Positions 9,206-62,733 of a stretch of 64,000 bases of DNA are shown in pieces. Each line of letters opens with the position of its first letter. Within the stretch, counting starts at the first letter, position 1. The DNA is from an uncultured Candidatus Saccharibacteria bacterium (GTDB taxonomy: Bacteria > Patescibacteriota > Minisyncoccia > Phycocordibacterales > UBA9973). The stretch lies in assembly GCA_964527185.1 (NCBI GenBank), contig CAZGOI010000002.1:197532-261531 (forward strand), written 5' to 3'. The notes below the pieces were generated by a model that saw only the letters and a list, made by a program, of their open reading frames with translations, was not told the DNA's origin and searched no databases. A program made the position numbers and the translations under genes.

Positions 9206-9787
9206 TTAATTTTTATACTCCCAGATTTTTACACGAGCGGGGCGCAGAACTCGCCCTGCCTCGGTGACAGATGGGTCGCCTATTTTGTAGCCTGATTGGA
9301 TAACACTTTCGATAATGTGGTCTTTGTTTTCTTCGTCGGTCTCTATAGATTCAACGGCTTCGTGAAGGTTGGGATCAAATTTTACTCCGACACTATTTAT
9401 AACTGTGATTTTATTGTCCGCAAAAGCTTGGAGGAATTTTGAATGGATATACTCTATTCCCTGCCGCCAATTTTTATCGACGCTCTCCCAAGCAGTCTTG
9501 TTGCCCATGGCCATATCGAAAGCATCGAGCGCTGGCAAAATCGAATCGACGAGTTCTTCTACCCCGAGTTCTTTGCCTCGCGAAAATTTTGCTTCGGCTT
9601 CTTTTTGCAAGTTAATATAGTCGGCCTTGGCCCTCTGCCAGCCGGTTAAATATTCTTCTTTCTCATCTTTTAGTTTTTTATTTTCGGCGCGAAGTCTCTT
9701 CATCTGGTCTTTTTTCGGCAATTCATCACCGTCTTCGGTACTGTCGACAAAAGCAACGTCTTCAAAATTTTCTTCATCTTTTTCCAT
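9206..9787 (-). CDS. grpE: nucleotide exchange factor GrpE
   Basis: Coiled-coil N-terminus with KLK repeats; C-terminal 'SVIQSGYKIGDPSVTEAGRVLRPARVKI' matches the GrpE beta-domain. Confidence 0.8.
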   Translation of the reverse strand: MEKDEENFEDVAFVDSTEDGDELPKKDQMKRLRAENKKLKDEKEEYLTGWQRAKADYINLQKEAEAKFSRGKELGVEELVDSILPALDAFDMAMGNKTAWESVDKNWRQGIEYIHSKFLQAFADNKITVINSVGVKFDPNLHEAVESIETDEENKDHIIESVIQSGYKIGDPSVTEAGRVLRPARVKIWEYKN

Positions 9788-9847
9788 AAGTGCTACTAGT
9801 ATACAAAAAAGTATGTTTTTTGCAAAAGAAAAACCTCTTGCGAGGTT

Positions 9848-10258
9848 TTATCTTTTACTCCACTGCGGAGCTTTGCGGGCTTTTTTGAGGCCGAACTTGC
9901 GGCGTTCTTTTTGGCGAGGGTCGCGTTTGAGCATTTTTGCTTTTTTCAAATTTGATCGCAGTTCGCTGTCAAACATAACAAGCGCTCGAGAGATGCCGTG
10001 TCGCACAGATTCGGCTTGGGAATTGATGCCCCCGCCTTTGGCGGTGACGACGACTTCAAATTTTTGCGAGTGACCAGCTTGGTCGAAAGCGCCAGTCACG
10101 ATCTTTTTCAGAGTGGCAGTTTTAAAATAATCTTCTAAATTTTTACCGTTTATCGAATAGGTCGTCTTGGTGGCTTTGTGTATTCGCACAACGGCAGTCG
10201 AAGTCTTGCGTCGGCCGATAGCTCTGATGTATTCATTTTTAGAAATTTTCTTTTCCAT
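9848..10258 (-). CDS. rpsI: 30S ribosomal protein S9
   Basis: 'GRRKTSTAVVRI', 'GGGINSQAESVRHGISRAL', C-terminal 'KKARKAPQWSKR'. Confidence 0.92.
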   Translation of the reverse strand: MEKKISKNEYIRAIGRRKTSTAVVRIHKATKTTYSINGKNLEDYFKTATLKKIVTGAFDQAGHSQKFEVVVTAKGGGINSQAESVRHGISRALVMFDSELRSNLKKAKMLKRDPRQKERRKFGLKKARKAPQWSKR

Positions 10259-15338: not shown

Positions 15339-16517
15339 TTAATTCCTTCGTCTAATACCTATTGCTTCGATCATCAAAAATGGATCACAGGTACCGTCTT
15401 TGACGCTACACATATTTAAAAATTCTGGACCCTCGAGGGTGACGGTCGTACATTTGTGTTCGGTTACTATCGATTTTATATATTCGTCGTTGCAAACAGC
15501 TTTGACAAACCAGTCGCGAATATCGAGGTCGGCGGTTACAAATATAGTGCCGGGCAGTGTCAGGGTGTGCGGCAATGTCCCGATGCAAGCTCTGAATGCT
15601 TCGCCCCAAGAATTTTCTATAGATTGGAATAGCGGTTCGACTTTTTTTAATTTTCGCTCGGCCAGTGCCCCGGTGCTGTAGAGGTTGAAGAGTTCGACGG
15701 CATCGCGGTACTCGATCTCGAGCTTGGTACACATGTATTTAAAGAAAGTATTTTTGCCGAATGGAAAAGATAGCGAGGCTTTGAGAATGCCCTTGGTTAT
15801 GATCGAGACATCGGTAACTTCGCCGCCAATATCAAGCAGAAGATATGAATCTGGTGTTACATATTTTTCACGAACAGCCAGATAAGAACAAAGCGTGAAT
15901 GAAGCAAATGAGATCGGCGTGTGGTGGTAGGAATCTGAAATAGTTTTTCGAATTTTGTCGAGACAAACTTTTGGCGAGAGCGAGATGGCCATGTGCATTT
16001 CGACCGAGCGGCTTTTCATGCCGAGAGGTTCATCTACTAGGTAGCCGTTGAGCGAGACCCCCATGATGTGGTGCTCGATAACTTCGGGTGAGCTTTTGGC
16101 GCTGCCATACTTTTTCTCATATTCCGCGTTGAGAGCTTTGATCTCGCTTTCGAGCATTTCATCGGCCAGTTTGCTAGTGAAAAAAAATGAATGCTCGTGA
16201 ACCATTTTTATAATACGAGTTTCAGACAGATACCAAGGTGAGGCCAGGACACAGACTATCTCATCTGGCGCGCCGACTTTAGAGTTGTATATCGCCTCGG
16301 ATGTTTCCTTTAGAGCTTTTATCATGTCATTTAGAAAGACAGAAAAATTGAGTTCGTCGTGAAAAGAGATATCGACCCTCGATGATTTTATTATAGTCGG
16401 AACACTTTTTTCACCCTGCGGCATGCGAACTATGGCCCCACCGACTGACCCCGAGCCAATATCAAAAACCGCTACAATTTTTTCTTTTTTACTTTTCCCA
16501 CCAAGACCAAATGACAT
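15339..16517 (-). CDS. actin-fold (ASKHA) ATPase, FtsA/PilM-like
   Basis: Phosphate-1 motif 'VAVFDIGSGSVGGAIV' at the N-terminus and a second 'LLDIGGEVTDVSII' motif; 392 aa. The canonical ftsA is elsewhere (32083). Confidence 0.5.
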   Translation of the reverse strand: MSFGLGGKSKKEKIVAVFDIGSGSVGGAIVRMPQGEKSVPTIIKSSRVDISFHDELNFSVFLNDMIKALKETSEAIYNSKVGAPDEIVCVLASPWYLSETRIIKMVHEHSFFFTSKLADEMLESEIKALNAEYEKKYGSAKSSPEVIEHHIMGVSLNGYLVDEPLGMKSRSVEMHMAISLSPKVCLDKIRKTISDSYHHTPISFASFTLCSYLAVREKYVTPDSYLLLDIGGEVTDVSIITKGILKASLSFPFGKNTFFKYMCTKLEIEYRDAVELFNLYSTGALAERKLKKVEPLFQSIENSWGEAFRACIGTLPHTLTLPGTIFVTADLDIRDWFVKAVCNDEYIKSIVTEHKCTTVTLEGPEFLNMCSVKDGTCDPFLMIEAIGIRRRN

Positions 16518-40100: not shown

Positions 40101-40286
40101 CAAAATAGCTTTATATTTCAAGCCTATTTGGCTTGACTTTTTGTTATATTTGTGATATGATTGAACCAGAAAATTGTACTTTGAAAGTAGTTGTTTTATG
40201 TTTGCTTTGAGGACAACTCTCGCCTTCCCTACCAAGGTTAGACTTGTTCTCAAAGTAAACAAATTTTTTTTAAAAAATAAAACAAC

Positions 40287-41198
40287 ATGAATATGCAAAA
40301 CACATCACAATCGGGTGATATAAAAATGCCCAAAACAAAAACGCCTCTGGGTGTTCGACTTTTACTCTTATTGATTATTACTATCTTGTATTTTGGTATG
40401 TTTATCTTTGTTGACTGGGTGATCTGTCTTATTGTAGTCTCTGTAATATTAGCTGCTACAAACACGCTGTATTCAGTGACTACACCGGCATATCATTGTG
40501 CAATTGTATTAAACGTTTTAACCCGTGAAAAAAGAGTTGTTTATGAAGGATTCAGTCTTTTACTGCCATGGGAAAAATTACACAAGGTTATTGATCTTCG
40601 TTTTGAGCTTGCAAAAGAATGTATGAAAGAATTTCCTACTCTTGATGCGAAAATGATTGCGGAATATATTTTCACAATTCGTCCCTGCATTTCAATCGGA
40701 AATCCTGATGAAAACATTTTGCGATTTGCAAGTTATGAACCGACTGTTATTCAGAAAGGGAGTGAAGGATTCTACAGCCAAAAATTTTCCGACTATTATG
40801 GGAAAAATAGTGCAAAAGACCTTATAGACAAGGAAGCAATATGCAATTCATTATTCGGAGATGATGGCACAGCAAAAGCTGAAGAGGATATTATAAAAGC
40901 TAGATATGGTATTGAATCAGCTGTAAGATTAGTGAGCTCTAAATGGGATCAAGAAACCCAGAAGTTCAGAGATCTAATATCCGGTGCTAAATCTTTTGAT
41001 GAAGCCATTGGAATCCTGATGGGTAAAGATGGTAAAAAGATGTCGAAAGATCAGGCAATAAGAGTAGCAAAATTGATGAATTTCCCTGAAAATGTGAGGG
41101 AAGATATGTATGACGTAAAAATCGATGGCCTGAGCAACTTACGACACCTTAATGTCGTGGGTGGACTAGGTAATAAAAAACAAGGAGGTATGAAATGA
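40287..41198 (+). CDS. hypothetical membrane protein (two N-terminal TM; possible SPFH/band-7-like ectodomain)
   Basis: TM helices at residues about 20-60; weak resemblance of 'IVLNVLTREKRVVYEGFSLLLPWEKLHKVIDLR' to the start of the SPFH domain. Confidence 0.3.
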   Translation: MNMQNTSQSGDIKMPKTKTPLGVRLLLLLIITILYFGMFIFVDWVICLIVVSVILAATNTLYSVTTPAYHCAIVLNVLTREKRVVYEGFSLLLPWEKLHKVIDLRFELAKECMKEFPTLDAKMIAEYIFTIRPCISIGNPDENILRFASYEPTVIQKGSEGFYSQKFSDYYGKNSAKDLIDKEAICNSLFGDDGTAKAEEDIIKARYGIESAVRLVSSKWDQETQKFRDLISGAKSFDEAIGILMGKDGKKMSKDQAIRVAKLMNFPENVREDMYDVKIDGLSNLRHLNVVGGLGNKKQGGMK

Positions 41199-56855: not shown

Positions 56856-57317
56856 ATGTTAAACAAGAATTTTGCTAAAACCATTGCAGCTGTCGGTATC
56901 ATGAGTGCGCTTGCATTCACAGCTTTTGCCGAAAATAGTTCTGGTACATCGGGTGGTACTACACCAGCCGTTACAAGTAATACAGTTTCTGCAACAGCTA
57001 TCGCTTGCGTCGGTCAGGCCGTTAGTGCTCGCGAGCAAGCTATAGATGCTGCTACAACTACATTTACAAGTGCTGCCAATGCAGCATACAGTGCTCGTGC
57101 TTCTGCATTAGCTGCTGCATATCAAAAAACAACAAAAGCTGATGTGAAGAGTGCGGTTAAAGCTGCTTGGAGTGCATTTAATTCAGCTATGAAGAGCGCT
57201 CGCTCTGCATGGAATAGTGCCCGCAAGAGTGCTTGGAGTGCATTTAGAACTGCAGCAAGAGCTTGCAAAGCTTCTTCAATTGTCGATTCTAGTTCACAAG
57301 AAAATTCTGGTTTGTAA
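56856..57317 (+). CDS. secreted Ala/Ser-rich repeat protein
   Basis: Signal peptide 'MLNKNFAKTIAAVGIMSALAFTAFA'; repeats 'SAFNSAMKSARSAWNSARKSAWSAFRTAARA'. Confidence 0.5.
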   Translation: MLNKNFAKTIAAVGIMSALAFTAFAENSSGTSGGTTPAVTSNTVSATAIACVGQAVSAREQAIDAATTTFTSAANAAYSARASALAAAYQKTTKADVKSAVKAAWSAFNSAMKSARSAWNSARKSAWSAFRTAARACKASSIVDSSSQENSGL

Positions 57318-57528: not shown

Positions 57529-57532
57529 GCAT

Positions 57533-57604
57533 TCCGGAGTAGCTCAGCGGTAGAGCAGTCGCCTGTTAAGCGATTGGTCGCAGGTTCGATCCCTGCCTCC
57601 GGAG
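57533..57604 (+). tRNA. tRNA-Asn (anticodon GTT) with a U1:A72 acceptor pair; CC of CCA encoded
   Basis: Acceptor TCCGGAG/CTCCGGA, D-arm GCTC-AGCGGTA-GAGC, anticodon stem GTCGC/GCGAT with loop CTGTTAA, T-arm GCAGG-TTCGATC-CCTGC, discriminator G then CC. Confidence 0.8.
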
Positions 57605-58205
57605 CCCTATAGGTTGGTTAGAAGTTGCAAGTATCTTGTCAAAGGGAGAACGCATTGAAAACACTAGGTTTTTTCCTTCTAACTGACAGTTCTGAAGTAG
57701 AAAATTAAGAAGTTGCCTTTTTTCAGGCACTTCAGAACTCTTGAAAATCTCAAGAGCTCTTTTTGCTATGTTTAGTATTGTATTTGCAATCAAATAGAAC
57801 TCTTCATCTGCTTCAGAGTGAATACTCATATCTGTGAGAATAGCACTTTGTCTTTCTTTGAACTCTTTCAATTTTCTGTCATACATTTCATCAGTAATTC
57901 GCCTCATACGATATACCATATTCGCCTATAATATTCTCAGCTAGTTTAGTATATTTATTATTTGTTGCAGTTTGAGCTTCTCGTTTTAGTTTCTCATATC
58001 TATCAGAAATTGAGTAAACCATAGGCAGTTTTCTGAAATTAGTTTCTTTATTTTTCTCTTTTTTCAGTAGTTTTATTTTATTAACAAATGGTTTGTTTTT
58101 CAATAATTCACTAAGATAAGAAACCATTTTTGTATTGGCTTTTGATTTTTTGCCGATAAAGTAATCTGGGTATTCAATATCAGATATATCTTTCATATTA
58201 TTCAC
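57566..58205 (-). pseudogene. two overlapping out-of-frame ORFs resembling the C-terminal region of a large serine recombinase (remnant); the 3' end reads antisense through tRNA-Asn
   Basis: ORFs 57891-58205 and 57566-57919 overlap by 29 nt in different frames. The distal C-terminus 'KRQLLNFLLQNCQLEGKNLVFSMRSPF' resembles the LSR C-terminal motif, and the last 13 codons are the reverse complement of the tRNA. No catalytic N-terminal domain is present. Confidence 0.3.
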
Positions 58206-58283
58206 TTTACTTTAGTTTACAATACTTAGCAACATTTTGTTGTATAAATACGCAAATTAAGTTATAATTCAGATACAAAAATT

Positions 58284-58751
58284 ATGGATAAAAATCATCA
58301 ATTATTAGCATATTTAGCTAAAGAACATCCTTCAGCTTCTATCACAGTATTGATGAAGCTCTCTTATTTAGTTGATCTTGTAAGCGTAAAAAAATTAGGT
58401 CAAAAGATTTCTTCTTTTGATTATATTCGTTATAGTTATGGTCCATTTGCTCAAGAGGTTTATGGTATTGTTGAGGACCTAACTCTTAAAAAAATACTCG
58501 CTACAAAAAATGATTATGCAGGTGGTAGTGTTGAATATATAACTTATACATTTACTAATTCTGAAGATTTTTCTTTTGATAAATTGTCAGAAGAAGAGGT
58601 TTCTGTAATAAATGAAATGATGTCTGAACTAAAGGGCTATGGTGCTAAAACTTTAACTGAAATAGCATACAAAACTAAACCTATGGTTGGTCTAGGTGCA
58701 ACGCTTGGTGGGACTGAGGGTCTTTTCAAAAAACTTGATCTAGCTCAATAA
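58284..58751 (+). CDS. Panacea (DUF4065)-domain protein, putative antitoxin-like
   Basis: 'SITVLMKLSYLVDLVSVKKLGQKISSFDYIRYSYGPFAQEVYGIV' matches the Panacea/SocA-GepA-like core (KLxKLxY...W..GPV...Y pattern). Confidence 0.5.
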   Translation: MDKNHQLLAYLAKEHPSASITVLMKLSYLVDLVSVKKLGQKISSFDYIRYSYGPFAQEVYGIVEDLTLKKILATKNDYAGGSVEYITYTFTNSEDFSFDKLSEEEVSVINEMMSELKGYGAKTLTEIAYKTKPMVGLGATLGGTEGLFKKLDLAQ

Positions 58752-58754
58752 TAT

Positions 58755-59261
58755 ATGCAGATGCCTGAAGCGGTTACTTTGATGTATTATCATCCTAGAA
58801 ATACATTTGCTGATAAAACTTCAGAAGAAGAAAGAACGGGTGTAATCAAAAAGAAATATAAGTTGTTATTCAAACAGCATAAAGAATTAGGTCTTTATGT
58901 GTTTTTTGTTTTGACTAGTAGTCCTTCTGCTTGTGTGAAGGAAAGAATGTTTTCTATAAATAAAACAGATTGGGAAGAAAGATTAGGAAACAGCTTAGAT
59001 GCTGATTGCTCATACACTGATATTCAAAGCCATTCAGTAGTTCACGATAAAAGCGAGGTTTTAGAAAAAGCCAGTAATCCTAAAATAGGTTTTTCTTATG
59101 TGGCTAAACTATATCAATCAAAGTTCAATGAATTATCCACTGCAATAGAAAACTATCTTTCTGCTACAACAGCAAAGACGGATATTGAAAAAAGAGATTT
59201 CTTAAAAAGTATTGTTCTTGAAGATAAAGCTACAGATTTTATCAATAAGTTTAAGGTTTAG
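58755..59261 (+). CDS. hypothetical protein, candidate toxin partner of the Panacea-domain gene
   Basis: 168 aa; starts 4 nt after the Panacea ORF stop; no recognisable motif. Confidence 0.35.
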   Translation: MQMPEAVTLMYYHPRNTFADKTSEEERTGVIKKKYKLLFKQHKELGLYVFFVLTSSPSACVKERMFSINKTDWEERLGNSLDADCSYTDIQSHSVVHDKSEVLEKASNPKIGFSYVAKLYQSKFNELSTAIENYLSATTAKTDIEKRDFLKSIVLEDKATDFINKFKV

Positions 59262-59340
59262 CTTCCAGTTTGCTGTATCTTGGAAAGAAGGTCATTATTT
59301 GGCTAAAACCTAATTCTTTTTGTATTTCTTTCCAGTTTAT

Positions 59341-59401
59341 AGTTCTGAACTCGGACAATACAGGGAGCCAACTTGACTTTTATATATTTTTATGCTACTA
59401 T
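59341..59401 (+). promoter_or_regulatory. operator-like inverted repeat plus sigma-70-type promoter (module copy 1)
   Basis: IR AGTTC-T-GAACT (59341-59351); -35 TTGACT (59373-59378), 17-nt spacer, -10 TACTAT (59396-59401). Confidence 0.45.
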
Positions 59402-59517
59402 ACGAATGTAGCGGCTCTTTGATATTAATGGTTGTTTATGATTGATTTTGTTGGGTTTTCCCTACACCTTTATAGGACTAGAGAAAACTCAATAATTCAA
59501 AAACTAAAACAATTAAA

Positions 59518-59976
59518 ATGAAAAAAATTCTTGATGAAGAAATCGTAATAAGCAATATCCAATACATCTATCCTGTATTACCTACAGGAGACGAATTAAG
59601 GATTGCACTAGGTGCACTATCTCTGACCAATCAAAAATCGAACGTCAATGATGATTGCCATCCAATGATAGTTGGGTGGAACGAAAACTCCGCAGTCGAT
59701 TTTGCTGACTTTCAATGGTGGATTAAGTGCCTCATTGAAGAAAGCCATTTTATTATTGGGAAGAAGATTATCACTTTTGCAGAAAAATTAGATCTGTACC
59801 CTGAGGAAGCTTGTGGAGAACCTTCTGTCACTTTAAAATTCAAAGACGGTACAATGTTCAGAATTACACAAAGAGACATCAGCAAGCCGATTGAAGTTTG
59901 CGTACGAGGCGATGGCCCAAATTTCCTGAAGATGAAAATTAAGGAATACGGGTACACTCCTATTCCTTTCGATTAA
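59518..59976 (+). CDS. hypothetical protein (152 aa), cassette 1
   Basis: ORF preceded by the module promoter and leader, followed by a terminator hairpin. Confidence 0.4.
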   Translation: MKKILDEEIVISNIQYIYPVLPTGDELRIALGALSLTNQKSNVNDDCHPMIVGWNENSAVDFADFQWWIKCLIEESHFIIGKKIITFAEKLDLYPEEACGEPSVTLKFKDGTMFRITQRDISKPIEVCVRGDGPNFLKMKIKEYGYTPIPFD

Positions 59977-60001
59977 ATTCATCTAAAATAGAAAATAATT
60001 T

Positions 60002-60031
60002 AAGTTCCTTGCCAAAACAAGGAACTTTTTA
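60002..60031 (+). terminator. rho-independent terminator after cassette 1
   Basis: AAGTTCCTTG-CCAAAA-CAAGGAACTT followed by TTTTT. Confidence 0.65.
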
Positions 60032-60072
60032 TATACATAGCTGATATAAAGTAAAAATGTTAATATTAATTA

Positions 60073-60600
60073 ATGGAATATTTGGATATCTGTGATGAAA
60101 AAGGAAATTTGACAGGAATCAAAGCTTTGAAAAAAGAAGCTCATGAGAAAGGCCTCTGGCATAGATCAGTTCATATCTGGATTTTAAACTCAAAAAATGA
60201 ATTATTAGTGCAAAAAAGATCTCCGTTAATGGATAACCATCCTAATGAGTGGGATATTTCAGCTGCAGGGCATGTATCAGCTGGAGAAGATAACATAACT
60301 TCTGCCTTACGAGAAACCGAAGAAGAACTTGGTTTAAAACTTTCTCCTGGAAATTTTACTCTCATTGGGACTATTCAACAAAGGTCTGCGCGTGAAGGAT
60401 ATATAAATAATGAAGTAAACCCTATCTATGTTGTTAAAATGGATTTAGATCTAAGTAATATAAAAAAGCAGGTAGAAGAAGTTTCAGAAGTAAAATTTAT
60501 TCCTTATCTTGAATTGAAAAAACTTATTGATAATAAAGACCCTTATTTTGTTAAACACCCTAGTGAGTACGAACTTCTTTTCAGTTATTTATCACAATAA
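60073..60600 (+). CDS. NUDIX hydrolase
   Basis: Nudix box 'GHVSAGEDNITSALRETEEELGL' (G-x5-E-x7-REUxEExGU). Confidence 0.8.
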   Translation: MEYLDICDEKGNLTGIKALKKEAHEKGLWHRSVHIWILNSKNELLVQKRSPLMDNHPNEWDISAAGHVSAGEDNITSALRETEEELGLKLSPGNFTLIGTIQQRSAREGYINNEVNPIYVVKMDLDLSNIKKQVEEVSEVKFIPYLELKKLIDNKDPYFVKHPSEYELLFSYLSQ

Positions 60601-60633
60601 AGCCATTCTAACTTCATCCCAGGTTCGGAGCAA

Positions 60634-60670
60634 TAAACAGAAACGGCACCTTTTGGTGCCTTTTCTGTTT
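60634..60670 (+). terminator. rho-independent terminator after the NUDIX gene
   Basis: AAACAGAAACGGCACC-TTTT-GGTGCCTTTTCTGTTT. Confidence 0.75.
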
Positions 60671-60770
60671 ATCTAACTCCGGGGTAAGAAAGCAAACTAC
60701 TTTGCTTTCGACAGGGATCGAAGGATTGATAATGTTTTATTTATAAAACTATCAATCACGCGCCGTGGGC

Positions 60771-60792
60771 GAGATTCCCTGCCTCCGGAGCC
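60771..60792 (+). repeat. direct repeat of the tRNA-Asn 3' end (att-like)
   Basis: CCCTGCCTCCGGAGCC (60777-60792) is identical to tRNA-Asn 57591-57606; the upstream GAGATTC resembles the T-loop. Confidence 0.6.
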
Positions 60793-60794
60793 AG

Positions 60795-60823
60795 TTGACA
60801 AATATATTAAATTATTCTATACT
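60795..60823 (+). promoter_or_regulatory. sigma-70-type promoter (module copy 2)
   Basis: -35 TTGACA (60795-60800), 17-nt spacer, -10 TATACT (60818-60823), immediately after the tRNA-like repeat. Confidence 0.45.
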
Positions 60824-60835
60824 AGAAACAGTATC

Positions 60836-60922
60836 GTAGTTCTTTGATATTTTTTGGTTATTTAGTTGTATTTGGTGGATTATCCTTGCTTCTTTTTAGG
60901 AGGTTAAGATAATTCACTAAAT
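60836..60922 (+). repeat. conserved 87-nt leader, copy A (near-identical to 61450-61536)
   Basis: GTAGTTCTTTGATATTTTTTGGTTATTTAGTTGTATTTGGTGGATTATCCTTGCTTCTTTTTAGGAGGTTAAGATAATTCACTAAAT, with 1 substitution relative to copy B. Confidence 0.7.
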
Positions 60923-60947
60923 AATTCACAATTAAATACCAAAAAAA

Positions 60948-61229
60948 ATGGATGCAAATCAATTTCCCAACGACAACGATTTAGTTAATCCTGAAGACCC
61001 TTACTCACCAACCGAAAAAGAGGTTCGTGAATATATGGAAATGGGATATAGTCGTTCAGGTGCAATATCTTCACTCACCACAACCAAAAAAAATCGTGAA
61101 GAAGAATACGACCCTTTTCAGGAAGGTGATGCTGAGGAAATGGATGCAATTCGTAACCCCCATGTATCAATGGAGGGTATGATGTTAAAAGTTAATCAGC
61201 ACTATGGACCACCTTCAAATGAGGACTAA
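60948..61229 (+). CDS. hypothetical acidic protein (93 aa) with a UBA-like motif, cassette 2
   Basis: 'EVREYMEMGYSRSGAISSL' resembles the UBA helix-1/2 consensus (..L.eMGF.r..a..AL); Asp/Glu-rich. Confidence 0.35.
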   Translation: MDANQFPNDNDLVNPEDPYSPTEKEVREYMEMGYSRSGAISSLTTTKKNREEEYDPFQEGDAEEMDAIRNPHVSMEGMMLKVNQHYGPPSNED

Positions 61230-61244
61230 GTCATTTTTATTTAA

Positions 61245-61288
61245 AGCCCTAAGCTTTGTAGAAAAACTCTACTTGCTAGGGCTTTTTC
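61245..61288 (+). terminator. rho-independent terminator after cassette 2
   Basis: AGCCCTAAGC ... GCTAGGGCT followed by TTTTT. Confidence 0.6.
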
Positions 61289-61296
61289 TATATTAT

Positions 61297-61417
61297 GAGT
61301 TCTGAAGTGTTCATCATTTGAAACATCTCAAAAATATTACTAAACTCAATATCTCTTTTAATTTGAACCCAGTTAAGAGTTCTGAACTCATCCACTAGTG
61401 GGAGCAAATACTTGACT
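61297..61417 (+). repeat. inter-cassette repeat (about 120 nt) carrying the IR operator and the -35 (copy 1)
   Basis: Starts TGAGTTCTGAAG, contains CATCTCAAAAATATTACTAAACTCAATATCTCTTTTAATTTGAACCCAGTTAAGAGTTCTGAACTCATCCACTAGTGGGAGCAAATACTTGACT. It is closely similar to 62101-62215. Confidence 0.6.
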
Positions 61418-61440
61418 TTTTATATATTTTATGCTATCAT
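61378..61440 (+). promoter_or_regulatory. operator-like inverted repeat plus promoter (module copy 3)
   Basis: IR GAGTTC-T-GAACTC (61378-61390); -35 TTGACT (61412-61417), 17-nt spacer, -10 TATCAT (61435-61440). Confidence 0.45.
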
Positions 61441-61449
61441 GCTCAGGTA

Positions 61450-61536
61450 GTAGTTCTTTGATATTTTTTGGTTATTTAGTTGTATTTGGTGGATTATCCT
61501 TGCTTCTTTTTTGGAGGTTAAGATAATTCACTAAAT
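61450..61536 (+). repeat. conserved 87-nt leader, copy B
   Basis: Near-identical to 60836-60922. Confidence 0.7.
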
Positions 61537-61559
61537 ATAAACAATTAAATAATCAAAAG

Positions 61560-62039
61560 ATGAACATAAGTAACAGAACAAAGAAGTATGCCGAGATGTT
61601 GAACTATCAAGGTCATAGGCATCCAGTAATTAAGGCATTGATAGTTGTTTTTGAAATACTTGATGATTACACAAGTAGAGTAAAAGCAGGAGAAGACGGA
61701 GACCGTTTTCTTTCAATGTTGGGAGGGCTGGAAAAAGCAGATAGGCAGAGTTTGGTCAAAAAAAGCAATCGTGCTTTCTGGGGACAGGGACATTTCACCA
61801 GCGAAAATACGTCAGAATTATTTGCTCTCATCGGAGTAACTGATGAAAAAGCAAAAGTTTTTGAAGGATATGATTTCATATGGGAAATATTTAGCTCAAA
61901 AGGAAATACTCCCGAAGAAATATTTTCAAATATGAGAACGGCTATGTCACCTCCTGCCAGATTCTTGTTGGAACAAACCTATGATTCCTTCAAGAATGAA
62001 ATGATTACAATGTATTATCGTTACTTCCAAGTAAGGTAA
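61560..62039 (+). CDS. hypothetical protein (159 aa), cassette 3
   Basis: ORF with the module promoter and leader upstream and a strong terminator downstream. Confidence 0.4.
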   Translation: MNISNRTKKYAEMLNYQGHRHPVIKALIVVFEILDDYTSRVKAGEDGDRFLSMLGGLEKADRQSLVKKSNRAFWGQGHFTSENTSELFALIGVTDEKAKVFEGYDFIWEIFSSKGNTPEEIFSNMRTAMSPPARFLLEQTYDSFKNEMITMYYRYFQVR

Positions 62040-62043
62040 AAAC

Positions 62044-62099
62044 AAATCCGCTTCAGTAGAAGGAAAATCCCTTCATTAAACTGAAGCGGATTTTCTTTT
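62044..62099 (+). terminator. rho-independent terminator after cassette 3
   Basis: 14-bp perfect stem AAATCCGCTTCAGT ... ACTGAAGCGGATTT followed by TCTTTT. Confidence 0.75.
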
Positions 62100-62100
62100 A

Positions 62101-62215
62101 TGAGTTCTGAAACCCTGCTACAGGAAATGTCTCAAAAATCTTAGAAAACTCAATATCTCTTTTAATTTTAACCCAATTAAGAGTTCTGAACTTGTCCACT
62201 AGGGGGAGCATTTTT
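62101..62215 (+). repeat. inter-cassette repeat, copy 2 (degenerate, no intact promoter)
   Basis: TGAGTTCTGAAACC...CTCAATATCTCTTTTAATTTTAACCCAATTAAGAGTTCTGAACTTGTCCACTAGGGGGAGCA. Confidence 0.55.
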
Positions 62216-62221
62216 ATAAAA

Positions 62222-62258
62222 TAAAAAACCTCATCACATCACTATGATTAGGTTTTTA
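62222..62258. terminator. bidirectional terminator hairpin
   Basis: AACCTCATCA-catcactatga-TGATTAGGTT with T-runs on both strands. Confidence 0.5.
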
Positions 62259-62277
62259 ACTTAAAGTTCTGTATTAA

Positions 62278-62628
62278 CTATACGAAGTTATTTTCGTACC
62301 ATTTCTGCCTTTGATCCATTTTTCCTCTTCGGTCGTAATTACAAAATTTAGCTACTGCGTCCATAAATTTTTCGAAAATACTGTTGCTCGCAGAAGCATC
62401 ATCTTTATTTTTTTCTCGATTCTCCACATACCATTTTAATGGATTTTGCTTTTTGATAAGACCCAACTCTATTTGCATAAAATCGTCAGGAATTTCAAAA
62501 AAGTTTTCCGATTTTATCTGAGGAGGGATTTGAAGGCAAAATGTTCCCATTCTGTATGTAGCGTCCTCAGACTGGAACTCAATTACTTCATGTCCACCTA
62601 TATGTGAACTTATTAATTTAATGAGCAT
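62278..62628 (-). CDS. hypothetical protein (116 aa)
   Basis: ORF only. Confidence 0.35.
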   Translation of the reverse strand: MLIKLISSHIGGHEVIEFQSEDATYRMGTFCLQIPPQIKSENFFEIPDDFMQIELGLIKKQNPLKWYVENREKNKDDASASNSIFEKFMDAVAKFCNYDRRGKMDQRQKWYENNFV

Positions 62629-62733
62629 AGCGTTTATTTTTTAGTTTACAAATAATCTATCATAAAATAATCTTTTGTAAATACCACTGGTTCTGAAACA
62701 GTTGAACTGGAAACACATCAAAAATCTTAGGTT

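What the first reader, a model, noticed from the sequence alone, without database searches (positions are those of the whole stretch)
59341..62258. Tandem array of small-ORF cassettes that share an inverted-repeat operator, a promoter and an 87-nt leader but carry unrelated coding sequences
Three consecutive + strand units (ORFs at 59518, 60948 and 61560) each have their own TTGAC(T/A)-N17-TA(C/T)N(A/C)T promoter and end in a strong rho-independent terminator. The units differ as follows.
- Units 1 and 3 carry the inverted repeat GAGTTC-T-GAACTC 27–28 bp upstream of the -35, which is a good candidate operator for a dimeric regulator.
- Units 2 and 3 share an 87-nt leader with only one substitution, and a further similar ~25 nt up to the ATG, although the ORFs behind them are unrelated.
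- Unit 1 has a diverged version of the same leader.
- A fourth, degenerate copy of the inter-cassette repeat (62101-62215) has lost the promoter.
The leader has no start-codon-proximal SD; the GGAGG it contains is about 45 nt upstream of the ATG. It could encode an 11-codon TTG-initiated uORF or a structured regulatory RNA. One promoter-and-leader unit driving interchangeable cargo recalls moron, anti-defence or polymorphic immunity-gene arrays, and I do not recognise it as a described system. The motif GAGTTCTGAA recurs at least 7 times between 57.7 and 62.7 kb.
Basis: seen in the sequence. Interest (0 to 1): 0.75.

Follow-up and report, generated by a model that had tools for sequence, protein, structure and literature searches.

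The report
Gene cassettes with shared RNA leader
Next to a tRNA gene in an uncultured Nomurabacteria-type (candidate phyla radiation, CPR) genome, small genes sit in interchangeable cassettes separated by tRNA-end-like repeats, and three of them begin with a previously undescribed long RNA hairpin leader that related genomes use in front of many unrelated genes.

Summary
Three + strand units at 59373, 60795 and 61412 each have a sigma-70-type promoter. Each also has a conserved box (TTCTTTGATATT) and a terminator. Units 2 and 3 share 88 nt at 99% identity.

The interpretation needs revision in three ways.
- **Leader.** The "leader" is one long RNA hairpin of about 45 bp that runs up to the ATG. 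It is strand-specific, with 15 of 37 pairs showing compensatory changes. It belongs to a family of at least 21 members in Nomurabacteria/Paceibacterota genomes, placed before unrelated genes, including a sigma-70 gene. It has no Rfam match.
- **"Operator".** GAGTTCTGAACTC is the end of a ~115-nt repeat (D1) that is conserved in other genomes, with or without a promoter after it. It resembles the T-arm-to-3' end of tRNA-Asn.
- **Setting.** The region is an integration hotspot at tRNA-Asn. It holds a 3' fragment of a large serine recombinase gene. An exact 17-nt repeat of the tRNA 3' end bounds a 3.2-kb island. One cassette (ORF159) is flanked by D1 copies and is absent at the same site in a relative. 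A relative carries 17 same-strand repeats, each pair enclosing one gene.

My best reading is a tRNA-linked cassette array plus a new cis-acting 5'-UTR hairpin. What the hairpin does is inferred, not shown.

The parts
57532..57607 (+). tRNA-Asn (GTT), the integration target. Its last 17 nt (57590-57606) are the left copy of the direct repeat.
   Evidence: ARAGORN and Rfam; repeat family D17.
57566..57919 (-). 3' fragment (C-terminal ~110 aa) of a large serine recombinase gene. Its end overlaps the tRNA 3' end.
   Evidence: 1884 homologues were found. In the ~500-aa ones the match lies at the C-terminus, and they carry Resolvase + Recombinase + Zn_ribbon_recom. tblastn confirms the match. Intact copies convergent with a tRNA are seen in L007 and L003.
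58284..59261 (+). Island cargo: a SocA/Panacea-domain gene (58284-58751) and an unknown 168-aa partner (58755-59261).
   Evidence: Pfam PF13274, E = 1e-16.
59258..59370 (+). D1a, a diverged copy of the D1 repeat, ending in TAGTTCTGAACTC...GGGAGCCA.
   Evidence: 63% identity to D1b; alignments.
59373..59517 (+). Unit 1 control region: promoter 59373-59401, box 59416-59426, hairpin 59429-59515.
   Evidence: CM score 88 bits.
59518..60027 (+). ORF152 (59518-59976) and a terminator-like hairpin (60002-60027).
   Evidence: There are 13 homologues at 62-73% identity. The model has a PH-like beta fold and no functional match.
60073..60672 (+). NUDIX hydrolase gene (60073-60600), a repeat-like TCCCAGGTTCGGAGCA (60617-60636) and a terminator (60633-60672).
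   Evidence: Pfam NUDIX; nhmmer hit; inverted repeat I12. ORF152 is also adjacent to a NUDIX gene in L059 and, on the opposite strand, in L067.
60678..60793 (+). tRNA-like arm followed by an exact 17-nt copy of the tRNA-Asn 3' end (60776-60792). This is the right boundary of the 3.2-kb island.
   Evidence: Repeat family D17. A similar-looking segment in L059 ends in a copy of tRNA-Gln instead; the similarity was judged by eye from the sequences.
60795..60947 (+). Unit 2 control region: promoter 60795-60823, box 60841-60851, hairpin 60850-60946.
   Evidence: CM score 96 bits.
60948..61289 (+). ORF93 (60948-61229) and its terminator (61245-61289).
   Evidence: The L062 orthologue has the same neighbours: a tRNA-end-like sequence before it and D1 after it.
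61295..61406 (+). D1b repeat: ATGAGTTCTGAAG ... AAGAGTTCTGAACTCATCCACTAGTGGGAGCA.
   Evidence: The 3' end aligns to the L062-type tRNA-Asn 3' end (z = 4.1, 0 of 500 shuffles).
61412..61559 (+). Unit 3 control region: promoter 61412-61440, box 61455-61465, hairpin 61462-61559.
   Evidence: CM score 104 bits.
61560..62100 (+). ORF159 (61560-62039) and its terminator (62037-62100).
   Evidence: The model is all-alpha with no match. The whole cassette is absent at the same site in L062.
62100..62211 (+). D1c repeat with no promoter behind it. It corresponds to the single D1 of L062.
62213..62730 (-). Reverse-oriented cassette: terminator, ORF116 (62278-62628), promoter-like site 62681-62654, and a partial D1 copy (62690-62730, + strand).
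   Evidence: (family D3). There is no similarity to the gene at this position in L062.
40125..40289 (+). Fourth leader of the family in the window. It lies just after tRNA-Val and before a 303-aa ORF.
   Evidence: CM score 35 bits, E = 6e-5. Sequence read. Fold -39 kcal/mol, z = -5.8.

Best explanation
Two things overlap at this locus.

**(A) Cassette array at tRNA-Asn.** The stretch from about 57.6 to 62.7 kb is a variable region that has grown at the 3' end of tRNA-Asn.
- An element moved by a large serine recombinase integrated into the T-loop/3' end of the tRNA.
- It left the recombinase 3' fragment beside the tRNA and a 17-nt copy of the tRNA end 3.2 kb downstream.
- Further downstream, one- or two-gene modules are separated by same-orientation repeats that derive from a tRNA-Asn T-arm-to-3' end. 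These repeats are the D1 ends, which contain the GAGTTCTGAACTC "operator".
- I infer that the repeats are attachment-site copies, and that modules are gained, lost and swapped at them.
- The ORF159 module, together with one D1 copy, is such a gain relative to L062.

**(B) Shared leader.** Three of the modules start with the same expression unit.
- It has a strong extended -10 sigma-70 promoter, then a conserved box (TTCTTTGATATT) about 12-17 nt after the -10.
- A 25-45-bp RNA hairpin follows. Its AU/GU-rich base pairs the U-run after the box with the A-run just before the ATG.
- The unit belongs to a wider Nomurabacteria/Paceibacterota leader family.
- In a genome whose mRNAs are mostly SD-less and apparently leaderless, I infer that the hairpin acts in cis on the mRNA. 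It would occlude the start region and serve as a double-stranded RNA target (RNase III-type processing) or as a protein platform, setting translation and stability.
- The 88-nt identity of units 2 and 3 is best explained by recent gene conversion between two family members in one genome.

**Shown:** the anatomy, the conservation, the covariation, the strand bias, the recombinase identity and the insertion/deletion difference.

**Inferred:** that the repeats are recombination sites, which enzyme uses them, and what the hairpin does.
For: **Organism and genome style**
- The closest Fmt matches are Nomurabacteria/Paceibacterota MAGs.
- Only 7 of 59 genes have an SD-like 4-mer, and many have TGnTATAAT 6-9 nt before the ATG.

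**Hairpin**
- Folding energy is -41/-43 kcal/mol (z = -7.9/-9.3) for units 2/3 and -26.9 (z = -3.3) for unit 1.
- The reverse complement reaches only -18 to -21 kcal/mol, and the sense fold holds 4-9 G-U pairs.
- Across 21 members the sense strand is the more stable in 17 (Wilcoxon p = 2e-4).
- Covariation on 6 sequences: 89% of cells paired; 15 of 37 pairs changed on both sides, against 6.1 +/- 1.6 in shuffles (0 of 500) and 1-6 with slid partners.
- In the 13-sequence CM alignment 90% of pairs are canonical, and ten consecutive upper-stem pairs are 100% canonical with 2-4 pair types each.

**Family members found elsewhere**
- L031, L029 (two copies), L041, L059, L061 (two), L062 (two), L009, L001, L033, L064, L065 (four) and L067.
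- There is no Rfam match.

**Leaders differ for the same gene**
- The ORF152 homologue in L061 has the unit-2/3 leader type (87% identity over 117 nt).
- The ORF93 orthologue in L062 has the unit-1 type.

**Hotspot**
- The tRNA and its 17-nt repeat.
- The recombinase fragment.
- Intact recombinases convergent with tRNA-Asn and tRNA-Gly in L007 and L003.

**D1**
- D1 is 80-89% identical in L062 and L009, although Fmt is only 47-63% identical across the related MAGs.
- L062 has ORF93-terminator-D1 once, whereas the window has an extra promoter-leader-ORF159-terminator-D1.

**Repeat arrays in relatives**
- L062 has 17 same-strand ~30-nt repeats over 9 kb, with about one called gene on either strand per interval.
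- L061 has three tandem repeat-promoter-ORF-terminator units.
- The repeats align to the tRNA-Asn T-arm-to-3' end at z = 4-5.

**Published analogues**
- Dehalococcoides ssrA islands (PMC3146451).
- Tycheposons (10.1101/2020.12.28.424599).
Against: - No intact recombinase lies in the part of the window examined (55-64 kb), and tblastn with the serine recombinases finds only the fragment anywhere in the window. None lies in the 20-kb L062 locus either.
- D1 is about 115 nt, far longer than a serine-recombinase att site. Its central ~45 nt is highly conserved for reasons I cannot explain.
- The ORF159 difference could have arisen by homologous recombination between D1 copies.
- The similarity of the repeats to a tRNA end needs several small gaps. 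It is best to the L062-type tRNA-Asn, not to the window's own.
- I have no pair of near-identical genomes that differ by a single cassette.
- No transcript data exist, so the TSS, any processing and the role of the box are unknown.
- About 20 single-stranded nt precede the hairpin. This argues against a simple 5'-end stabiliser.
- Most L062 cassettes lack the leader, and the leader also occurs outside arrays. Parts (A) and (B) may therefore be linked only by co-occurrence.
Confidence: 0.6

Rival explanations
1. A dimeric regulator binds the GAGTTC-T-GAACTC palindrome and co-regulates a set of promoter-leader modules that drive interchangeable moron, anti-defence or immunity cargo.
For: - The palindrome sits at a similar distance upstream of the -35 in units 1 and 3.
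- The motif is strongly over-represented, with 6 copies against 0.16 expected.
- The cargo is small, unannotated and variable.
- One leader-driven gene just beyond the window has a weak SAM-lyase-like hit.
Against: - The palindrome occurs without a promoter in D1c and in L062 D1.
- In L009 it is split by a 19-nt insertion, and there it precedes promoters at different distances.
- Unit 2 and most family members lack it.
- Related repeats in L062 keep one orientation on both sides of genes of either strand.
- It aligns to a tRNA T-arm.
- No PADLOC or PHROGs hit supports a defence or anti-defence function for the three cargo ORFs.
Confidence: 0.12
2. Plain local duplication and gene conversion. 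The repeats (D1, promoter, leader) spread by unequal crossing-over and conversion inside a fast-evolving region, without any site-specific recombination. The tRNA-end likeness of D1 is chance or an old scar.
For: - The 88-nt block at 99% identity has sharp edges inside otherwise diverged promoters and tails, which looks like a conversion tract.
- The D1 copies are long enough for homologous recombination.
- No active recombinase is present.
Against: - The exact 17-nt tRNA-end repeat, together with the recombinase fragment, shows at least one site-specific event.
- The same cassettes sit behind different tRNA-end copies in other genomes: tRNA-Gln in L059, a tRNA remnant in L031.
- The 17 same-strand repeats in L062, with about one gene each, are hard to produce by unequal crossing-over.
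Confidence: 0.18
3. The intergenic repeats are REP/BIME-like palindromic elements, spread by a RAYT-type transposase or by another copying process. They mark gene ends but are not cassette recombination sites.
For: - They are short imperfect palindromes placed just after stop codons or between convergent genes.
- One or two copies occur in several other loci.
Against: - In L062 all 17 copies lie within 9 kb next to tRNA-Asn, and none lie in the other 11 kb of the locus.
- All are on one strand.
- They resemble a tRNA 3' end.
- No IS200/IS605-type gene was seen in the loci.
Confidence: 0.1
4. The leader hairpin is a miniature inverted-repeat element (Correia/ERIC-like) that happened to insert into 5' UTRs.
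For: - It is a long imperfect palindrome present in many copies per genome.
- Near-identical copies occur within one genome.
Against: - It always has the same orientation and the same place between the box and the ATG.
- There are no target-site duplications (read from the sequences).
- The sense strand folds better than the antisense strand because of G-U pairs.
- Compensatory changes keep the stem while the sequence drifts.
- None was found away from a promoter.
Confidence: 0.05

Closest known systems
Tandem genomic islands at the 3' end of tRNA/tmRNA genes moved by large serine recombinases (Dehalococcoides ssrA-GIs; PMC3146451)
   Same: - The serine recombinase gene lies on the reverse strand right next to the target gene.
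- Integration is in the T-loop/3' end.
- A short direct repeat of the 3' end marks the far boundary.
- Many such repeats lie downstream, bounding strain-specific modules, some of which lack any integration genes.
- A tRNA-like sequence lies inside the element.
   Different: - The modules here are one or two genes (0.2-1.3 kb), not ~10-kb islands.
- Most repeats are diverged, carry small insertions and form hairpins.
- The target is tRNA-Asn (tRNA-Gln in L059), not ssrA.
- No intact integration module is left in this window.
Tycheposons and tRNA-seeded genomic islands of Prochlorococcus (10.1101/2020.12.28.424599)
   Same: - Repeated integration at a tRNA pushes older elements inward.
- Partial tRNAs and recombinase fragments are scattered through a hypervariable island.
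- The cargo is small and strain-specific.
   Different: - Tycheposons use tyrosine recombinases and carry replication modules.
- The recombinase here is a large serine recombinase.
- The granularity here is a single gene.
Chromosomal integron cassette arrays (my own knowledge)
   Same: - The arrays consist of single-ORF cassettes separated by same-orientation imperfect-palindrome sites.
- The sites are similar within one genome and differ between genomes.
- The cargo is mostly unknown small proteins, and some cassettes are reversed.
   Different: - There is no IntI, attI or Pc.
- The sites are about 30 nt, tRNA-end-like, and lack the RYYYAAC...GTTRRRY ends.
- The cassettes carry their own promoters.
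RNase III-processed or translation-occluding 5' leaders, e.g. the phage lambda N leader, T7 early mRNAs, E. coli adhE and rnc (my own knowledge)
   Same: - A long, nearly perfect double-stranded RNA stem lies in the 5' UTR.
- It ends at or overlaps the translation start region.
- It is conserved by compensatory change.
   Different: - Cleavage is untested here.
- The host uses almost no SD, so nothing SD-like is being masked.
- A conserved single-stranded box precedes the stem.
- The same leader serves many unrelated genes.

Membership tests
Integron | IntI-type tyrosine recombinase gene with attI and Pc at the head of the array | tested here: not met
   No recombinase domain other than the serine recombinase fragment was found among the 10 ORFs of 57.5-64 kb. 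None is on record in the 20-kb L062 locus. The rest of the window was not scanned protein by protein.
Integron | attC sites: 57-141-nt imperfect palindromes with RYYYAAC ... GTTRRRY ends | tested here: not met
   The repeat sequences lack these end motifs. They are about 30 nt (about 115 nt for D1) and align to a tRNA 3' end.
Integron | Mostly promoter-less cassettes expressed from Pc | tested here: not met
   Each unit has its own strong promoter-like site and a terminator.
tDNA-targeted integrative elements in tandem (ssrA-GI / tycheposon type) | Integration in the 3' part of a tRNA/tmRNA gene, with a direct repeat of that end at the far boundary | tested here: met
   57590-57606 equals 60776-60792, a 17-nt exact repeat that starts in the T-loop. 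L059 shows the same arrangement with tRNA-Gln.
tDNA-targeted integrative elements in tandem (ssrA-GI / tycheposon type) | Recombinase gene adjacent to the target gene | tested here: met
   Only a C-terminal fragment remains in the window. Intact copies that overlap a tRNA are present in L007 and L003.
tDNA-targeted integrative elements in tandem (ssrA-GI / tycheposon type) | Further copies of the att repeat downstream that bound separate modules | tested here: inconclusive
   The D1 ends and the L062/L061 repeats align to the tRNA-Asn T-arm-to-3' end at z = 4-5, but with gaps. One cassette difference is flanked by D1. Recombination at these sites has not been shown.
tDNA-targeted integrative elements in tandem (ssrA-GI / tycheposon type) | Excision and circularisation at the repeats | not testable with these tools
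   This needs reads, PCR across junctions, or an in-vitro recombination assay.
Described RNA families (Rfam 15), including riboswitches and leaders | Match to a curated covariance model | tested here: not met
   Only tRNAs reach the gathering score. Below it there are only chance-level miRNA-type hairpin hits.
MITE (Correia / ERIC type) | Both orientations, variable insertion sites, target-site duplication | tested here: not met
   All 21 members have one orientation and one position relative to promoter and ATG. The fold is strand-asymmetric.
REP/BIME | Genome-wide dispersal of short palindromes, usually with a RAYT gene | tested here: inconclusive
   The repeats are clustered and on one strand in L062. 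Whole genomes could not be read.
Type I toxin or regulatory uORF in the leader | Conserved small ORF | tested here: not met
   The hydrophobic 22-31-codon frame of units 2 and 3 is interrupted in unit 1 and in L061 (sequences).

The most novel reading that the evidence does not exclude
Nomurabacteria-type CPR bacteria have an integron-like gene-capture system of their own. Single-gene cassettes, each with its own promoter, would be inserted, excised and shuffled at ~30-nt hairpin sites derived from the T-loop/3' end of tRNA-Asn. A large serine recombinase acting in trans would do this. In addition, the hairpin leader would be a new class of cis-regulatory RNA that lets a leadered mRNA be translated or controlled in an organism whose ribosomes otherwise work on SD-less, leaderless mRNAs.
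Probability: 0.2. Interest if true: 0.8.

Novelty: new variant of a known kind. Interest (0 to 1): 0.6.

Why it matters
- **How CPR genomes vary.** CPR bacteria have tiny genomes, and few of their mobile elements have been described. How they gain and exchange accessory genes is poorly understood. Single-gene cassette arrays seeded at a tRNA would be a simple answer, and one that metagenomic reads can test.
- **A new RNA motif.** The hairpin leader is a well-supported new RNA motif. Its evidence is compensatory change, strand bias, at least 21 members and no Rfam match. It sits in a lineage with almost no known regulatory RNAs.
- **A question about translation.** The genome appears largely leaderless and SD-less. 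The motif therefore raises a concrete question about how leadered mRNAs are translated there.
- **A practical point.** The near-identical leaders break short-read assemblies. The Logan contig L001 starts inside the unit-3 leader.

Tried and rejected
**Searches that found nothing or little**
- Four pattern scans of viral contigs, with leader and D1 motifs, gave 0 hits.
- The metagenome pattern scan gave 24 hits, but only L041 was genuine. The rest were chance matches without a hairpin.
- The genome scan anchored on Fmt gave relatives too distant (47-63% identity) for synteny across the island.

**Cargo function**
- Pfam, PHROGs, NCBIfam and PADLOC gave nothing for ORF152, ORF93, ORF159 or ORF116.

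**Ideas about D1 and the leader**
- *D1 as the 3' end of a minus-strand gene* was rejected. Substitutions between copies are mostly non-synonymous, L009 has an in-frame stop, and the recombinase family ends at the tRNA overlap instead.
- *D1 as a structured RNA* has only weak support: consensus folds are poor on both strands.
- *The box pairing with the region before the ATG* holds in only some members, by inspection.
- *GGAGG as an SD presented by the hairpin* was rejected, because it is not conserved and the genome is SD-less.

**Literature**
- Full-text searches found no description of such a leader or such arrays in Patescibacteria.

Full report
**Observation**

The three units exist as described.
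- Repeat finding gives an 88-nt block (60836-60923 and 61450-61537) at 99% identity. It also gives a ~87-nt upstream repeat, D1 (59283-59369 at 63%, 61320-61406, and 62124-62210 at 89%), and a partial copy at 62690-62730.
- The consensus scan finds TTGACT/A-17-TAnnnT promoters at 59373, 60795 and 61412. It also finds terminator-like hairpins after ORF152 and after the NUDIX gene.
- The terminators after ORF93 and ORF159 are visible in the sequence and as inverted repeat I1.
- GAGTTCTGAA occurs 6 times in the window, against 0.16 expected.

**Organism**

- The best Fmt matches (63% identity) are MAGs labelled Candidatus Nomurabacteria or Paceibacterota, so this is a CPR genome.
- Its genes almost never have an SD. 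Only 7 of 59 have any SD-like 4-mer.
- Many genes have TGnTATAAT 6-9 nt before the ATG, which is the signature of leaderless mRNAs.
- A structured 5' UTR of about 110 nt is therefore unusual in this genome.

**The leader is a long RNA hairpin**

- From the box to the ATG, units 2 and 3 fold into one stem of 41-46 pairs at -41 and -43 kcal/mol (z = -7.9 and -9.3). Unit 1 folds at -26.9 (z = -3.3).
- The reverse complements reach only -18 to -21 kcal/mol, because the sense fold uses 4-9 G-U pairs.
- The base of the stem pairs the U-run after the box with the A-run before the ATG.

**The leader is a family**

- Upstream of an 85%-identical orthologue of ORF159 (L031) there is the same promoter and box, and a hairpin with the same basal stem but a different apex.
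- The family also precedes unrelated genes in the Patescibacteria contig L029.
- It precedes homologues of ORF152 in L059 and L061 and the ORF93 orthologue in L062.
- On six sequences, 89% of cells pair. Fifteen of 37 pairs have changes on both sides, against 6.1 +/- 1.6 in shuffles (0 of 500) and 1-6 when partners are slid.
- A covariance model built from these finds more members, listed here.
  - Window 40172-40289, after tRNA-Val.
  - L001 3285-3362, just beyond the window end.
  - L009, a second copy in L062, L033, L041, L064, four copies in L065 (one before a sigma-70 gene) and L067.
- With filters off, the window holds exactly four copies.
- In the 13-sequence model alignment 90% of pairs are canonical, and ten consecutive upper-stem pairs are 100% canonical with 2-4 pair types each.
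- Across 21 members the sense strand folds better in 17 (p = 2e-4).
- Rfam has no match.
- No small ORF is conserved in the leader.
- Box consensus is TTCTTTGA(TATT), 12-17 nt after the -10. Its role is unknown.
- Leader types are not tied to genes. ORF152 has the unit-1 type here and the unit-2/3 type in L061 (87% identity over 117 nt, although the proteins are only 66% identical). ORF93 has the unit-2 type here and the unit-1 type in L062.
- The sharp-edged 88-nt identity between units 2 and 3 looks like a recent conversion tract.

**The setting is a tRNA-Asn integration hotspot**

- The minus-strand ORF at 57566-57919 has 1884 homologues.
- In the ~500-aa homologues the match is at the C-terminus, and they carry Resolvase, Recombinase and Zn_ribbon_recom domains.
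- Their C-termini (…LPGWDSNPRP…) read through the reverse complement of a tRNA T-arm.
- The window therefore keeps only the last ~110 codons of a large serine recombinase gene, abutting tRNA-Asn.
- Intact genes in the same convergent, overlapping arrangement exist in L007 (tRNA-Asn) and L003 (tRNA-Gly).
- Together with the 17-nt repeat, this defines a 3.2-kb island (57608-60792). It carries a Panacea-domain pair, D1a, unit 1 with ORF152, and the NUDIX gene.
- In L059 the ORF152-NUDIX pair instead follows tRNA-Gln, a 130-nt segment and a 19-nt copy of the tRNA-Gln end. That 130-nt segment resembles window 60678-60775 by eye.

**D1 and the "operator"**

- D1 recurs at 80-89% identity in L062 and L009, although Fmt is only 47-63% identical across the related MAGs. 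It always lies directly after a terminator.
- In L062 it follows the ORF93 orthologue once and is followed by a convergent gene.
- The window has, in addition, promoter-leader-ORF159-terminator and a second D1.
- The genes to the right of D1 are unrelated in the two genomes.
- The D1 3' end (AAGAGTTCTGAACTCATCCACTAGTGGGAGCA) aligns to the T-arm-to-3' end of the L062-type tRNA-Asn (z = 4.1-4.8, 0 of 500 shuffles). It does not align well to the window's own tRNA-Asn.
- In most cassette-type members the -35 is preceded within 1-5 nt by such a ...GGAGC(C)A end.
- In L009 the palindrome centre carries a 19-nt insertion.
- These points argue against an operator and for a decayed attachment-site copy.

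**Arrays in relatives**

- L061 has three tandem units of the form [AAGGTTCCCACTTCGTCCCATGTGGGGAGCC]-promoter-ORF-terminator; the first two also carry the leader.
- L062 has 17 copies of (A)TTCCGAACATCCTC(T/C)A(A/C)GGTTCGGAGCA between 4517 and 13628. All are on the tRNA-Asn strand, spaced 224-1122 nt apart. In nearly every interval there is one called gene, on either strand.
- This array starts 1.8 kb after tRNA-Asn.
- No recombinase is on record in that locus.
- The same repeat type occurs once or twice in L031, L061, L065 and L067, and as a partial copy at window 60617-60636.
- Because the orientation is independent of gene strand, these are not promoter or terminator elements.

**Comparison with known systems**

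- The closest described systems are the Dehalococcoides ssrA islands (PMC3146451). Their shared features are listed here.
  - A 540-aa serine recombinase lies on the reverse strand next to attL.
  - Insertion is in the T-loop.
  - The islands are tandem and bounded by 20-bp repeats of the 3' end.
  - Some islands lack integration genes.
- Tycheposons are also close.
- The difference here is granularity (one gene per module) and the hairpin form of the repeats, which gives the arrays an integron-like look.
- The defining integron features (IntI, attC end motifs, promoter-less cassettes) are not met.

**Cargo**

- The three ORFs have no family hit.
- Models are confident but match nothing informative.
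- A defence, anti-defence or immunity role therefore remains speculation.

**Verdict**

- The finding is genuine and more interesting than a local curiosity, but its parts need renaming.
  - The "operator" is an att-like tRNA-end repeat.
  - The "leader" is a member of a new structured 5'-UTR family.
  - The "array" is a small example of tRNA-seeded cassette arrays in Nomurabacteria.
- Still to be shown are the function of the hairpin and the mobility of single cassettes.

Noticed in passing
window 1-57000 (gene starts): Almost no gene has a Shine-Dalgarno sequence (7 of 59). Many have TGnTATAAT 6-9 nt before the ATG, so the organism probably translates mainly leaderless mRNAs.
   Followed up: partly
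L062:2378-2750: The tRNA-Asn of this relative carries an insertion of about 300 nt in the anticodon loop (...cgcctgt | insert | taagcgattgg...). This is presumably an intron, and ARAGORN misses the gene.
   Followed up: no
window 60678-60793 and L059 ~9730-9853: These tRNA-like segments look alike by eye. Each has an acceptor-like 5' strand, a hairpin with a CUAC/CUGC loop, and CAGGGAT ... ATTCCCTG around a ~60-nt insert. Each ends in a copy of the neighbouring tRNA's 3' end plus GCCA (Asn in the window, Gln in L059). They may be an att arm or a real tRNA-like RNA. The Dehalococcoides islands also hold a tRNA-like sequence.
   Followed up: partly
L009:14470-14520 and 16270-16300 (reverse strand); L065:1728-1775 and 2642-2689: A 19-21-nt insert, C(C)NCCAAAGGCGG(A/G)CAGGC(T/A), sits inside the repeat hairpin in two different genomes and two repeat types.
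   Followed up: no
window 57687-57740: Inside the recombinase fragment there is an inverted pair of the D1-type motif 42 nt apart: CAGTTCTGAAGTA on the + strand and GAGTTCTGAAGTG on the - strand. The second is the same 13-mer as at the start of D1b.
   Followed up: no
window 58284-59261: A SocA/Panacea-domain gene is followed by an unknown 168-aa gene, a likely toxin-antitoxin-type pair carried by the island. There is a weak PADLOC hit to PDC-M19A/DarG.
   Followed up: no
L001:2407-3701 (about window 63.9-65.2 kb, beyond the window end): Fic and HTH_17 genes lie on the minus strand. After them comes another promoter-box-hairpin leader (L001 3285-3362) before a 111-aa protein with a sub-threshold SAM-lyase hit (E = 4e-5).
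   Followed up: partly
L001 start (= window 61482): The only public short-read contig carrying ORF159 begins inside the unit-3 leader. This suggests the near-identical leaders break assemblies.
   Followed up: no
L064:700-3800: Six copies of another 57-nt repeat (…CCCTCACCTTTTC…GTTCTGGATTCTGAA…) lie between small co-directional ORFs. This looks like a further array type in another Patescibacteria contig.
   Followed up: no
window 56856-57317: An alanine-rich 153-aa protein with a signal-peptide-like start has internal 66-nt repeats (AWSAF…SAR) and lies just upstream of tRNA-Asn.
   Followed up: no
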